Positions 16,889 through 20,574 are shown, counted from the stretch's first letter. The stretch is 64,000 nucleotides of DNA from GCF_058153355.1 NZ_CM177019.1, one strand, 5' to 3'. Notes: generated by a model from the letters alone, not told the origin. Made by a program: numbers and translations.

Positions 16889-18314
16889 TAATGCCAGTCA
16901 GTTAAGCAACTGACTGGCTCTTTTTCGGGGCTGTGGGGTATTTCCAGGGCCTCTCCTTTACCACTCTCGGGAAGGCCCTTTCCCTTCTTGTCGGTAATTT
17001 CACAAGTTGTCCCATACTTGCAAGATCGCGCATCAGCTCCGGTATACGTCCCGGTGAAGCGCCCTGCAATGTCATCAGCATTCTCATCACCATTCCGCAT
17101 GATTCTGAGAAACTCAGTTGATTCGGCCAGTAACCTTTCAGATGTTCCGCCATTTTAATCATCTGATATCTCACCAGATTATAAGCCAGTAAGACACCCC
17201 ACAGCTCTTGCTCCACAAGCTCCGGCTTTTTACTTCTCAGCGTCAGCCTGCTCAGTTGCATCGTCTGTTTTATCTCCCTGTATCCCAGTTCGATTTCCCA
17301 GCGATGACTGTACAGATCCGCCATTTCTCCTCCGGGGAAGCGCATGGCGTCCGTCATCGACGTCAGCAGATGGCAGACTTTTCCTTTGCGCGTCACGGTC
17401 AGCAGGCGGGCTGTCACTTCATTTCCCAGTCCCGGCCACTTTTTTCGTGCCTGCGGGCTGGTTTTCAGCTTCACCAGATGATCGCCTTTACCCAGTTTTC
17501 TGATCTCTTCATATTGCGCTCCCTTTCTGAGAGGTATCATCCAGTGGCGGTGTTCTCCCGCCAGGCTCCAGGCATTTAACAGTCCCAGTGAGTAATAACC
17601 TTTATCCATTAACGTCAGAGTGTTATCGCCGGTTTGTTCTATAAGTTGCTCAGCAAGCTCATTTTCGCTGTTCTTCATCGTGCCGAAGGCTGCAGCCGTC
17701 AGCAGATGGCTGGTCAGTTCCATCTGGCAGACCATTTTGACCTGCGGGTAGAGCGCCGGGTTCCCGGCATGTGTCTGGCGGGGGAAGGCTGCATCGTTCT
17801 CTGGTGTATCCGGTGTGCGCCAGAACACACCATCGATGGCCAGCAGGGTCAGGCCGCACCAGTGCGGATGCGGCGTGGCGTTATGCCAGAGCTGCGCTGT
17901 TTTCGTGAACACGCGGCGGACAGCCTCACTTCCCAGGCGCTGGCGGGCCTGAATAACGGCACTGGGGGCAACGAAGGGGCGATTGCCCGGCAGCATGATG
18001 TCCAGGCGATTCACAATCTGGTGAAGAGGTTCTTTACGCTCAAGCGCCATGCCAACAATACACCAGACCATCATTTCGAGGGGAAGACGGCGCTTGCGTA
18101 GCGTTACAGTACCTGATTCGGCAAGGCAACGAGAGATGAGTTCGGGGTCGAGGTAATCCCCCAGAGAAGTCAGTGGGTTACGCAGAGAATCGTAACGGGA
18201 TACCAGATCAAGAGCCTGTCCAATGTGCATAAAAAAATCCGGAAACAAGTGAGCGTTTCCGGATTCTTACACAGCCACTGGATCGGTCAACTGATCCTTA
18301 ACTGATCGGCATTA
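16889..18314 (-). mobile_element. IS4 insertion sequence (1426 bp) with 12-bp target-site duplication
   Basis: Terminal inverted repeats taatgccagtcagttaag (16889-16906) and cttaactgatcggcatta (18297-18314); flanking direct repeat cggcaaatgtcg at 16877-16888 and 18315-18326. Confidence 0.9.
16902..18230 (-). CDS. insG: IS4 transposase (DDE)
   Basis: ORF 16902..18248; start assigned to the internal Met ([40 protein letters not shown]...), 442 aa, recognised as the IS4 transposase. Confidence 0.9.
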
Positions 18315-18333: not shown

Positions 18334-18877
18334 TTATTTAAGCTGGGTAAATGCAGATAATCGTTTTCTGGCTTCGCGATTTGTCGCCTGCATCACCATC
18401 CACGGACTGAACGCCCACGGCGTGGCATCAATACCGCGTAAAACCGCTGCTAAATCACACCATTGATAATCCATCACTTCATCATCGTTGATCTGTAACG
18501 CACTGGTCGTGCGTGCGGCAAATACCGGACATACTTCATTTCTACAATGCCATTCGGATCGGTGGCGCGATAGCGAAAGTCAGGATAGATTCAGGAGGTG
18601 TAATTTCCACGCCAAGCTCATAACGGCAACGGCGGATCACCGCGTCTTCGTTGCTTTCTCCCAGTTGTGGGTGCCCACAAACCGAGTTAGTCCACACGCC
18701 CGGCCATGCTTTTTTGCTAAGGGCGCGGCGGGTAACTAATAATTGCCCTTTGGCATTAAACAGCCAGCAGGAGAACGCGAGATGTAAGAGAGTGTCTGCC
18801 GTGTGTGCGGCATACTTTTCCAGCGTACCCGTGGGAACTCCCTGTGCATTCAATAAAATGACGTGTTCCGTTTGCAT
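18334..18877 (-). pseudogene. idi: isopentenyl-diphosphate delta-isomerase, disrupted by a frameshift
   Basis: N-terminal 98 residues match Idi ([28 protein letters not shown]...ITPPESI), then the frame stops at 18542. The remainder ([30 protein letters not shown]...AFTQLK*) continues in another frame to 18334. The break lies at gaatctatcctgac, which lacks the YP codons of intact Idi. Confidence 0.8.
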
Positions 18878-19125
18878 AATTTCTCACATGTAATTCTAAT
18901 CACTCATCATTATAGATAATTGAAGAGTGAAATGATTAACCAAGTGAGCGTTTATCGACAACCGCCCGTTTTGAGCGGATGTCGACAGGTAAAACCATTT
19001 AAAAAAGCAGCATCATATATTTGAAGCGACTTTCAATGGCCATTGCAACACAGTCAGAAATGACAGGAATAGAGAGAGTAAAAAGCAACAACAGACTGAA
19101 TATAGCGCGCATTAAAAGATTCATA

Positions 19126-20574
19126 TTATTCTCCATGCTCATTTTTCTTCAGCTTGCGCATCAGAAGCCACATACGTACTGTCCTGACTTTTAAATCTTT
19201 ATCAGAGACGGATTCCTTCACCAGATCAGCATGATGCTGATAGCCATTAAAGAAGACGTTCAGCGCAACGGCGCTAAGGGTTGCGAGCATAATGCCGCTA
19301 TGCAGCAACGGTTGCAGTACGGCCGGTAACTTAGAAAAGAAATCGTGAGAGAGCGTCGGAGTCATGCCAACGCCGAGACTGATCGCCACAATATAGAGGT
19401 TGTAACGGTTAGTGGTGTAGTTACAGCGCGACAGAATTCGAATCCCCGTCGCCAGTACCATGCCGAACATCACCAGCCCTGCGCCGCCAAGCACAAATTG
19501 CGGAATCGAGGCTACCAGCACCGCCATTTTGGGCACCATGCCAAACATGATTAATATGATCCCCGAAGAAATACACACCCAGCGACTATGAACGCGAGTC
19601 ACGCTAACCAGGCCAACGTTTTGAGAAAATGACGTGTGGGGGAAGCTGTTAAACGTTCCGCCTATCATTGTCCCTACACCATCGACACGCAGCCCGCGAA
19701 TAATATCGTGCGAAGAGAGTTTACGACCGACTATTTCACCCAGTGCCAGGAACATCCCCATCGACTCGATAAACACGATGATTAACACAGCGGTCATGGT
19801 TAGAATAGAAACGGGGTCAAATACCGGCATACCAAACGACATTGGGGTGACAATCGCAAACCACGAAGCATCATGTAGCCCGGACAAATTGACTTCATTC
19901 ATCATCCACGAAAGTAAAAAGCCAAATACAATCCCCAGTAATACGGCGACGTTGGACATAAATCCTTTCGCATAGCGAGTAATGAGCAAGATAAAAATTA
20001 AGACGGCAAAGGAGATACCTAAATAAACGGGATTACCATATTGCGGATTCCCTTCACCTCCAGCGGCCCAGTCAATACCGACCTGAATAATGCTAAGCCC
20101 GATAGAAGTAATAACCACACCGGTAACCAGTGGCGGGAATAAAGGCATTAAGCGACCGATAAGTGGTGCTAATAATGTGGTGATAAATCCCGCGGCGATA
20201 GTGGCACCAAATATCCCCAGCAGGCCGATATCCGGGTTCATGCCAATGGCTATCATTGGTGTTACAGCAGCAAAGGTTACCGACATAATCACCGGCAGAC
20301 GGATCCCCATAAAGCGGCCGATACCGATACATTGTAATAATGTGACGATCCCGCAGCAAAAGAGATCCGAGCTAATGAGCATCGCAATAGCTTCTTTTGA
20401 GAGGCCCAGTCGGTCACCAATCATAAGAGGAACAGCGACTGCACCTGCGTACATTACAAGGACGTGTTGCAGACCGAGTATGATCAGCTTTCCTGGTGAT
20501 AATATGCGGTCAACCTCATCAGTTGGGCGGTCTTGCCCTGAAGATGAGGGAAGTTGGGAATCTATGGCGCTCAT
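19126..20574 (-). CDS. uacT: uric acid permease (NCS2 family)
   Basis: ORF 19126..20703; start assigned to the internal Met (MSAIDSQLPSSSGQDRPTDEV...), 482 aa, multi-TM transporter. Confidence 0.9.
   Translation of the reverse strand: MSAIDSQLPSSSGQDRPTDEVDRILSPGKLIILGLQHVLVMYAGAVAVPLMIGDRLGLSKEAIAMLISSDLFCCGIVTLLQCIGIGRFMGIRLPVIMSVTFAAVTPMIAIGMNPDIGLLGIFGATIAAGFITTLLAPLIGRLMPLFPPLVTGVVITSIGLSIIQVGIDWAAGGEGNPQYGNPVYLGISFAVLIFILLITRYAKGFMSNVAVLLGIVFGFLLSWMMNEVNLSGLHDASWFAIVTPMSFGMPVFDPVSILTMTAVLIIVFIESMGMFLALGEIVGRKLSSHDIIRGLRVDGVGTMIGGTFNSFPHTSFSQNVGLVSVTRVHSRWVCISSGIILIMFGMVPKMAVLVASIPQFVLGGAGLVMFGMVLATGIRILSRCNYTTNRYNLYIVAISLGVGMTPTLSHDFFSKLPAVLQPLLHSGIMLATLSAVALNVFFNGYQHHADLVKESVSDKDLKVRTVRMWLLMRKLKKNEHGE

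What the first reader, a model, noticed from the sequence alone, without database searches (positions are those of the whole stretch)
19003..19142. Small hydrophobic ORF overlapping the uacT 3' end on the same strand
A 41-47 codon ORF (minus strand; ...MNLLMRAIFSLLLLFTLSIPVISDCVAMAIESRFKYMMLLF*) starts inside the last codons of uacT in another frame. The third ATG has GGAGA 6 nt upstream. It is below the ORF-track size cutoff and could be an unannotated small membrane protein.
Basis: seen in the sequence. Interest (0 to 1): 0.3.

Follow-up and report, generated by a model that had tools for sequence, protein, structure and literature searches.

The report
Known small membrane protein gene yqfG
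The small hydrophobic reading frame after the urate transporter gene uacT is real and under selection, but it is the already annotated E. coli gene yqfG, a 41-residue membrane protein of unknown function, so the finding is a rediscovery.

Summary
The ORF exists as described: window 18999..19142, minus strand, 47 codons from the first ATG and 41 from the third. It is not unannotated. It is yqfG (K-12 b4684). RefSeq lists it as "protein YqfG" between uacT and idi in every E. coli row shown, and this stretch matches about 99% of 5,426 complete genomes. The window's protein differs from K-12's by one residue (F3L).

The annotated, conserved start is the third ATG (19124). It lies 1 nt after the uacT stop codon, so the gene product does not overlap uacT. 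Only this ATG has a Shine-Dalgarno match (GGAG).

The frame is conserved directly downstream of uacT in Escherichia, Citrobacter, Klebsiella, Raoultella, Pseudocitrobacter, Yokenella, Trabulsiella, Kluyvera and Enterobacter. dN/dS is 0.03-0.39 and six residues are invariant.

Published work shows YqfG is integrally membrane-associated and is cleaved by the intramembrane protease RseP. Its function is unknown.

The one thing not seen in the papers I could search is the strict uacT-yqfG linkage whatever lies downstream. This suggests an accessory role for the urate transporter. That is an inference and was not tested.

Novelty: already known. Interest: low.

The parts
18999..19124 (-). yqfG coding sequence, 41 codons plus TAA stop (MNLLMRAIFSLLLLFTLSIPVISDCVAMAIESRFKYMMLLF)
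   Evidence: It is co-linear with annotated yqfG in L001 (1877..2002, WP_001050745.1, 100% identical protein) and in K-12 (b4684, 40/41 identical). dN/dS is 0.03-0.39 in this frame. AlphaFold2 predicts one helix over residues 3-40 with pLDDT 85.
19125..19142 (-).
   Evidence: There is no SD before these ATGs (-1.0 kcal/mol against -6.4 for the third ATG). The full extension is seen only in Escherichia and L010. Three other orthologues have a different 3-4-residue in-frame start, and the Kluyvera/Enterobacter orthologues start 52-84 nt after the uacT stop.
19130..19134 (-). Shine-Dalgarno-like GGAGA inside the last codons of uacT, 5 nt before the yqfG ATG
   Evidence: Read directly. The anti-SD duplex is -6.4 kcal/mol, in the top 7% of all ATGs in the window. 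Most orthologues have an SD match before the equivalent ATG, ranging from -2.2 to -11.1 kcal/mol.
19126..20574 (-). uacT (urate:H+ symporter, 482 aa), the upstream gene; its TAA stop at 19128..19126 is 1 nt from the yqfG ATG
   Evidence: The uacT-yqfG adjacency is conserved in all 26 loci that carry a YqfG-family ORF.
18953..18987 (-). Conserved stem-loop starting 11 nt downstream of the yqfG stop, with no U-tract after it
   Evidence: MFE of the 81-nt context is -27.1 kcal/mol, z = -5.8. The consensus fold over 8 Escherichia-group sequences has 3 hairpin pairs (4 in the whole fold) kept through changes on both sides. The simple scan does not call it a terminator.
18932..19024 (+). Antisense small ORF equivalent to yqfH (b4753). 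It is 30 codons here instead of 23 because of a 1-nt deletion in a T-run, and it overlaps the yqfG 3' end by 26 nt
   Evidence: K-12 annotation and translation. The 1-nt gap is seen in the alignment. PGAP calls the 30-aa form 'hypothetical protein' in L001. yqfH is reported in PMC6001520.
18932..18961 (-). Published constitutive sigma-70 promoter for idi (TTGTCG-18-AATCAT) in the yqfG-idi spacer; its -35 element lies in the 3' arm of the hairpin
   Evidence: Table entry 'yqfG > idi TTGTCG-18-AATCAT' in PMC3946193. The sequence is found at these coordinates.

Best explanation
This is yqfG, a known Escherichia coli small-protein gene. It encodes a 41-residue, single-helix inner-membrane protein.

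Shown:
- The ORF is the annotated yqfG.
- Its amino-acid sequence is under purifying selection across at least nine enterobacterial genera.
- It always sits directly after uacT on the same strand.
- Only the third ATG has a Shine-Dalgarno match.
- In published experiments, tagged YqfG is integrally membrane-associated and is cut within its transmembrane segment by the S2P protease RseP, both in vivo (including chromosomally encoded RseP) and in vitro.

Inferred:
- YqfG is translated from the uacT-yqfG message by ribosomes that finish uacT at TAA (19128..19126). They restart, or are recruited by the GGAG in uacT's last codons, at the ATG 1 nt downstream. This would tie YqfG synthesis to UacT synthesis.
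- The helix inserts N-in/C-out.
- RseP limits its abundance.
- My most likely guess for function (about one in three) is that YqfG binds UacT as a small accessory or regulatory subunit, as CydX, KdpF, AcrZ or MgtS do for their partners.
For: Identity:
- K-12 annotates yqfG b4684 at the co-linear position. Its translation is 40/41 identical to the window's.
- L001 carries the identical protein as WP_001050745.1 'protein YqfG'.
- The region matches 5393 of 5426 complete E. coli genomes, and yqfG is annotated in every listed row that covers the gene.

Coding:
- dN/dS is 0.03-0.39 in every pair where it could be computed; for example, 7 synonymous against 1 non-synonymous change versus E. albertii. 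The two other frames give pN/pS of 0.6-6.8.
- M1, R6, P20, S32, R33 and F34 are invariant in 16 sequences.

Start site:
- SD duplex is -6.4 kcal/mol before the third ATG against -1.0 before the first two.
- Orthologues start 1-4 nt after the uacT stop, or 52-84 nt after it with an SD match of their own (-4.3 to -11.1 kcal/mol).

Membrane helix:
- Kyte-Doolittle maximum over 19 residues is 2.18.
- AlphaFold2 predicts one helix over residues 3-40, pLDDT 85.

Experiments in the literature:
- HA-MBP-YqfG is integrally membrane-associated and cleaved by wild-type RseP but not by the E23Q mutant (PMC4597795).
- YqfG was cleaved in all four assays, including with purified RseP (PMC10470546, Table 1).

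uacT linkage:
- 11 of 11 loci fetched through the small protein itself have a Xan_ur_permease gene immediately upstream.
- The downstream gene varies: idi, a molybdopterin Fe4S4 gene, an IS element or others.
Against: - No function is known. The RseP papers call YqfG a protein of unknown function.
- I could not read the discovery paper (Hemm et al. 2008). I also found no ribosome-profiling table in the held library. Evidence that the untagged chromosomal gene is translated therefore rests on annotation, on citations of that paper, and on my memory of it.
- The RseP assays used N-terminally tagged, plasmid-expressed YqfG.
- Several uacT-like genes have no yqfG after them: Cedecea, Pluralibacter, Buttiauxella, Morganella, Serratia oryzae, Trabulsiella guamensis. 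UacT-type transporters therefore do not need it.
- Gene adjacency is not proof of interaction.
- Topology is predicted, and is only indirectly supported by RseP cleavage of an N-terminal cytoplasmic fusion.
Confidence: 0.9

Rival explanations
1. The 47-codon (or 45-codon) form that starts inside uacT is the real product, so the two genes overlap out of frame.
For: The ORF is open from ATG 19142. The same upstream ATGs exist in E. albertii and L010. Some gene callers have produced a 45-codon-start form (P0014).
Against: The first two ATGs have no SD match (-1.0 kcal/mol). The extension is dictated by uacT's own codons. The 4-6-residue MSMENN/MENN extension is seen only in the Escherichia group. 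Citrobacter and Yokenella have a different, shorter in-frame ATG, while Klebsiella and Trabulsiella have none. In Kluyvera and Enterobacter the ORF starts well after the uacT stop. RefSeq and K-12 use the third ATG.
Confidence: 0.03
2. The ORF is translated, but the peptide itself does nothing. Its translation matters only in cis, for example to keep ribosomes on the message up to the hairpin and so set mRNA stability or read-through into idi.
For: It is tightly coupled to uacT. A conserved hairpin sits 11 nt after the stop. idi follows in many species.
Against: The amino-acid sequence is under purifying selection and has invariant residues, which a purely cis-acting ORF would not need. The ORF persists in eight loci where idi is not within the ~2 kb fetched downstream. 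idi has its own mapped promoter.
Confidence: 0.04
3. YqfG is a toxin-like membrane peptide (type I toxin style) held in check by RseP and by antisense transcription from the yqfH side.
For: It is small and hydrophobic. It falls in the same RseP 'class I' substrate group as HokB and HokE. An antisense gene overlaps its 3' end.
Against: It has no separate promoter or long leader of its own and is coupled to a transporter gene. It is present once, at one conserved chromosomal site, rather than in mobile or repeated copies (median one place per genome). The RseP papers read report no toxicity for YqfG. PADLOC and toxin libraries were not searched.
Confidence: 0.03
4. It is a chance ORF with no coding function.
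For: ORFs of this length are common: 93 of 41-60 codons in the window.
Against: The frame is conserved across genera with dN/dS well below 1, and the alternative frames are not conserved. An HMM built from the family hits exactly one ORF per positive locus and nothing else in 93 loci. Published experiments use the protein.
Confidence: 0.005

Closest known systems
YqfG of Escherichia coli K-12 (b4684, YP_002791254.1; RefSeq WP_001050745.1 'protein YqfG')
   Same: Same locus (uacT - yqfG - idi), same length and same start 1 nt after the uacT stop. 40/41 residues match K-12, and the protein is 100% identical to WP_001050745.1.
   Different: One substitution (F3L) and one synonymous change relative to K-12. 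Downstream, a 1-nt deletion alters the antisense yqfH ORF.
CydX / AppX (small subunits encoded directly after cydB / appB)
   Same: A protein of about 30-40 residues with a single helix, encoded immediately downstream of, and on the same message as, a large membrane protein gene (established knowledge of cydABX). CydX is also among the RseP-cleavable small proteins.
   Different: CydX is a proven stoichiometric subunit required for oxidase activity. No physical or functional link between YqfG and UacT has been shown. There is no sequence similarity.
KdpF, AcrZ, MgtS, MgtR (small membrane proteins that bind and modulate transporters)
   Same: Single-pass small proteins acting on transporters. 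KdpF and MgtR are encoded in the partner's operon (established knowledge).
   Different: Their partners and effects are demonstrated. For YqfG only gene adjacency is known. AcrZ and MgtS are encoded away from their partners.
Signal-peptide-like and Hok-type substrates of the S2P protease RseP
   Same: [quoted passage not shown] It has the predicted type II orientation (PMC4597795).
   Different: Hok proteins are toxins with antisense-RNA control. For YqfG, no toxicity and no physiological consequence of cleavage is reported in the papers read.

Membership tests
YqfG (E. coli b4684) orthologue group | Protein sequence near-identical to the K-12 reference | tested here: met
   40/41 identical to the translation of K-12 3032817..3032942. 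100% identical to the annotated CDS in L001.
YqfG (E. coli b4684) orthologue group | Position between uacT and idi, same strand as uacT, start 1 nt after the uacT stop | tested here: met
   Window uacT stop at 19128..19126 and yqfG ATG at 19124. The layout is the same in K-12 (2816/2818) and in L001 (1875/1877).
YqfG (E. coli b4684) orthologue group | Reading frame maintained by selection in relatives | tested here: met
   dN/dS 0.03-0.39. 26 loci are positive with the family HMM.
YqfG (E. coli b4684) orthologue group | Protein actually made in cells | not testable with these tools
   Rests on Hemm et al. 2008 as cited in PMC4597795. That paper could not be opened. No ribosome-profiling supplement was held.
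Small single-pass inner-membrane proteins | One hydrophobic helix long enough to span the membrane | tested here: met
   Kyte-Doolittle 19-residue maximum 2.18. AlphaFold2 predicts a helix over residues 3-40. Published alkali-extraction result for HA-MBP-YqfG.
RseP (S2P) substrates | RseP-dependent intramembrane cleavage | not testable with these tools
   Shown experimentally for K-12 YqfG in PMC4597795 and PMC10470546. The window's variant differs only at residue 3, outside the Ile-8 to Phe-15 segment that was probed there.
Operon-encoded accessory subunits of membrane transporters or oxidases (CydX/KdpF type) | Encoded next to, and co-oriented with, the partner gene across species | tested here: met
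   All 26 YqfG-positive loci have uacT immediately upstream. This includes 11 of 11 loci found through the small protein itself.
Operon-encoded accessory subunits of membrane transporters or oxidases (CydX/KdpF type) | Physical binding to the partner and an effect on its activity or stability | not testable with these tools
   No experiment was found in the held literature. The structure tool returns no interface information.
Type I toxin-antitoxin toxins (Hok/Ldr/Ibs/TisB type) | Own transcription unit with a regulatory antisense RNA, and toxicity on expression | not tested
   Indirect points only: coupling to uacT argues against an own unit, and an antisense protein-coding ORF (yqfH) overlaps the 3' end. 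Rfam gave no sRNA match. Toxicity cannot be tested here.
Pfam / NCBIfam curated families | Match to a curated model above its cut-off | tested here: not met
   No Pfam match. The only NCBIfam match is far below cut-off (12 bits against 40). The RefSeq name therefore does not come from an HMM in that library.

The most novel reading that the evidence does not exclude
YqfG is a dedicated small accessory subunit or regulator of the urate:H+ symporter UacT. It would be made in step with UacT through translational coupling and removed by RseP. It would belong to a family spread through the Enterobacteriaceae whose members outside Escherichia are unnamed 'hypothetical proteins'. This would be the first small-protein partner described for an NCS2/NAT-family nucleobase transporter.
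Probability: 0.3. Interest if true: 0.4.

Novelty: already known. Interest (0 to 1): 0.08.

Why it matters
As a finding it matters little. The gene has carried a K-12 b-number (b4684) since its report by Hemm et al. 2008 (from memory; the paper could not be opened) and is annotated in RefSeq E. coli genomes.

It is a useful positive control for the scan, because reading raw sequence alone recovered a true 41-codon gene and the right start codon.

The residual value is a testable hypothesis for a protein of unknown function. Its strict linkage and near-abutting stop/start with uacT in at least nine genera, whatever lies downstream, points to the urate transporter as its partner.

Tried and rejected
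- Reading the discovery and follow-up papers failed because they are not held: Hemm 2008; Hemm 2010; Fontaine 2011; the EcoSal small-proteome review.
- Supplements of two ribosome-profiling or small-protein papers are not held, so I have no direct translation data.
- A search for 'b4684' returned only unrelated papers.
- Pfam and NCBIfam gave no family.
- Rfam gave only a chance-level match at 19 bits against a gathering score of 100, so no known RNA element explains the region.
- The simple terminator scan does not call the hairpin after yqfG.
- I considered modelling a UacT-linker-YqfG fusion with AlphaFold2 and dropped it, because the tool returns no coordinates or inter-residue errors, so an interface could not be judged.
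- I did not run the 1.84-billion-protein profile scan. A 41-residue hydrophobic profile would mostly add uninterpretable weak hits, and the answer would not change the verdict.
- The 47-codon overlapping form, a chance ORF, a purely cis-acting ORF and a type I toxin were considered and ranked low (see rival explanations).

Full report
**1. The observation**

The minus strand of the window carries an ORF at 18999..19142: 47 codons from the first ATG, translating to MSMENNMNLLMRAIFSLLLLFTLSIPVISDCVAMAIESRFKYMMLLF.
- In-frame ATGs lie at 19142, 19136 and 19124.
- The upstream gene, uacT, ends with TAA at 19128..19126.
- The 47- and 45-codon versions therefore overlap uacT out of frame, but the 41-codon version begins 1 nt after the uacT stop (TAAtATG).
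- GGAGA lies at 19134..19130, 5 nt before the third ATG.

Length alone is unremarkable. The window contains 93 ATG-ORFs of 41-60 codons. Only 3 of them have a 19-residue Kyte-Doolittle maximum of at least 1.8, and this one scores 2.18.

**2. What it is**

The stretch matches 5393 of 5426 complete E. coli genomes. In every listed record the feature under the ORF is "yqfG: protein YqfG".
- In strain 2020CK-00188 the CDS (L001 1877..2002, WP_001050745.1) starts 1 nt after uacT, and its protein is 100% identical to the window's.
- In K-12 MG1655 it is yqfG, b4684, YP_002791254.1, at 3032817..3032942. The K-12 protein is MNFLMRAIF..., so the window differs by F3L plus one synonymous change.

The ORF is therefore an annotated gene, not an unannotated one.

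**3. Is the frame conserved?**

A single-sequence search found relatives only in Escherichia and Shigella, including cryptic Escherichia clades at 85-88% identity, all 41 aa.

I then fetched uacT loci from one genome per species and scanned the DNA after each uacT stop. A YqfG-like ORF follows uacT in these loci:

| Group | Loci | Position relative to uacT stop |
|---|---|---|
| E. albertii, 'Citrobacter sp. MGH106', Citrobacter sp. R56, C. amalonaticus, Citrobacter sp. Res13, Klebsiella indica, Trabulsiella odontotermitis, Yokenella regensburgei | L009, L010, L012-L015, L021, L022 | Start 1-4 nt after the stop |
| Two Enterobacter and two Kluyvera species (more diverged, 38-40 aa) | L018, L019, L024, L025 | Start 52-84 nt after the stop, each preceded by an SD match (-4.3 to -11.1 kcal/mol) |

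- Sixteen distinct sequences align with one terminal and one N-terminal gap and share invariant M1, R6, P20, S32, R33 and F34.
- Nei-Gojobori counts in the yqfG frame give dN/dS of 0.03-0.39 for every pair where it is defined (7 synonymous against 1 non-synonymous change versus E. albertii). The other two frames give pN/pS of 0.6-6.8.
- An HMM of the family, run on six-frame translations of all 93 loci, hits exactly one ORF in each of 26 loci and nothing else.
- It finds nothing after the uacT-like genes of Cedecea, Pluralibacter, Trabulsiella guamensis, Serratia oryzae, Buttiauxella and Morganella, or of any non-enterobacterial locus.
- A profile search of the protein database added Klebsiella, Raoultella, Pseudocitrobacter and other Citrobacter species. 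All are labelled "hypothetical protein" with no Pfam domain.
- Pfam and NCBIfam hold no model for the family.

The frame is conserved, so the refutation test does not refute.

**4. The start codon**

Only the third ATG has a Shine-Dalgarno match: -6.4 kcal/mol to the anti-SD, in the top 7% of all ATGs in the window. The first two ATGs give -1.0. Most orthologues also have an SD match before the equivalent ATG (-2.2 to -11.1 kcal/mol).

The full N-terminal extension is present only in the Escherichia group. In Citrobacter sp. R56, C. amalonaticus and Yokenella a different in-frame ATG gives a short, unrelated 3-4-residue extension, and the remaining orthologues have none. The overlap with uacT named in the finding's title is therefore most likely not part of the gene product.

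**5. How it most likely works**

*Shown by sequence*
- A stop and start 1 nt apart, with the SD inside uacT's last codons. This is the classic layout for translational coupling.
- One hydrophobic helix: AlphaFold2 on the 16-sequence alignment gives a single helix over residues 3-40 with mean pLDDT 85.

*Shown in the literature*
- HA-MBP-YqfG is integrally membrane-associated, is predicted to be type II (N-in/C-out), and is cleaved by RseP but not by RseP(E23Q). Helix-destabilising substitutions at I8 and L12 change cleavage in an allele-specific way (PMC4597795).
- YqfG is one of six "class I" small membrane proteins cleaved in all four assays, including by chromosomally encoded RseP and by purified RseP (PMC10470546).
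- Both papers describe its function as unknown.

*Inferred*
- YqfG is made in step with UacT and inserted N-in/C-out, and its level is limited by RseP.

*Function*
- The only lead is gene context. All 11 loci fetched through the small protein itself have a Xan_ur_permease gene of 481-482 aa immediately upstream.
- The gene downstream varies. It is idi in Escherichia, Klebsiella, Pseudocitrobacter and some Citrobacter. In Raoultella it is a molybdopterin Fe4S4 gene. In one Klebsiella contig it is an IS-associated gene. In eight positive loci idi is not within the ~2 kb fetched downstream.
- This is the pattern expected of an accessory subunit or regulator of UacT, as CydX is for cytochrome bd or KdpF for Kdp.
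- I put that at roughly 0.3. Adjacency is not interaction, several uacT-like genes lack the ORF, and nothing in the searchable literature addresses it.

**6. Rivals**

- A chance ORF is excluded.
- The 47-codon overlapping form is unlikely (no SD, no conservation of the extension).
- A purely cis-acting ORF is hard to square with selection on the amino-acid sequence, with persistence where idi was not found downstream, and with idi having its own mapped promoter (TTGTCG-18-AATCAT; PMC3946193).
- A toxin-like role is suggested only by hydrophobicity, the shared protease and an antisense neighbour. Coupling to a transporter gene and a single fixed chromosomal site argue against it.

**7. Surroundings**

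- A stem-loop begins 11 nt after the yqfG stop (18953..18987, minus strand). The 81-nt context folds at -27.1 kcal/mol, z = -5.8.
- Across eight Escherichia-group sequences, three hairpin pairs (four in the whole fold) are kept through changes on both sides.
- The stem-loop has no U-tract and is not called a terminator. Rfam has nothing here.
- On the opposite strand K-12 annotates yqfH (b4753, 23 aa; PMC6001520), tail-to-tail with yqfG. In the window a 1-nt deletion in a T-run changes its C-terminus and lengthens it to 30 codons, overlapping yqfG by 26 nt.

**8. Verdict**

Novelty is "already known" and interest is low. The uacT-partner hypothesis is the only part that goes beyond the literature I could search.

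Noticed in passing
window 18334..18877 (-): idi (isopentenyl-diphosphate isomerase) is frameshifted in this window. Relative to K-12 there is a 4-nt deletion near 18587 and a 1-nt deletion near 18538, which splits the gene into ORFs of 111 and 47 codons. Near-identical E. coli strains (e.g. L001) have an intact 549-nt idi.
   Followed up: partly
window 16889..18314: A 1426-bp IS4 element (transposase ORF 16902..18248, minus strand) is inserted between idi and lysS, flanked by a 12-bp duplication of K-12 3033622..3033633. The same IS4-idi junction was found in only 3 of 5426 complete E. coli genomes, and at only 94-97% identity. The window may therefore come from a Shigella or an unusual lineage that is absent from that collection.
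   Followed up: partly
window 18932..19024 (+): The antisense small gene yqfH (23 aa in K-12) is altered here. A 1-nt deletion in a T-run (near 18991..18994) replaces its last two residues and extends it to 30 aa, so that it overlaps the 3' end of yqfG by 26 nt. PGAP labels this form 'hypothetical protein'.
   Followed up: partly
window 18953..18987 (-): A conserved stem-loop between yqfG and idi shows compensatory base changes across Escherichia species and has no U-tract. Its 3' arm contains the -35 element of the published idi promoter, and the whole hairpin lies inside the yqfH reading frame on the other strand. Its role is unexplained; it could be a transcript 3' end, a stabiliser or an attenuator.
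   Followed up: partly
proteins P0001, P0005, P0014, P0018, P0024: Some E. coli strains carry altered YqfG forms. Stop-loss or frameshift variants are extended to 57-66 aa through the run of T's at the stop codon. In-frame duplications within the hydrophobic segment give 43 and 45 aa forms.
   Followed up: no
L012-L015, L018, L019, L021, L022, L024, L025, L089-L093: YqfG-family ORFs outside Escherichia are either uncalled or labelled 'hypothetical protein', and neither Pfam nor NCBIfam has a model for them. A small family model built on the alignment (invariant M1, R6, P20, S32-R33-F34) would name them.
   Followed up: yes
L010 (NZ_KQ089822.1, 'Citrobacter sp. MGH106'): This record's UacT C-terminus (96% identity) and YqfG (93% identity) are as close to E. 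coli as those of E. albertii, and much closer than other Citrobacter records. The organism label may be wrong, or the region may have been transferred.
   Followed up: no
L021 versus L028 (both Trabulsiella odontotermitis): One record has a YqfG-family ORF after its uacT-like gene and the other does not. L028's downstream ORFs closely resemble those of T. guamensis L020. These could be different paralogues or strain differences.
   Followed up: no
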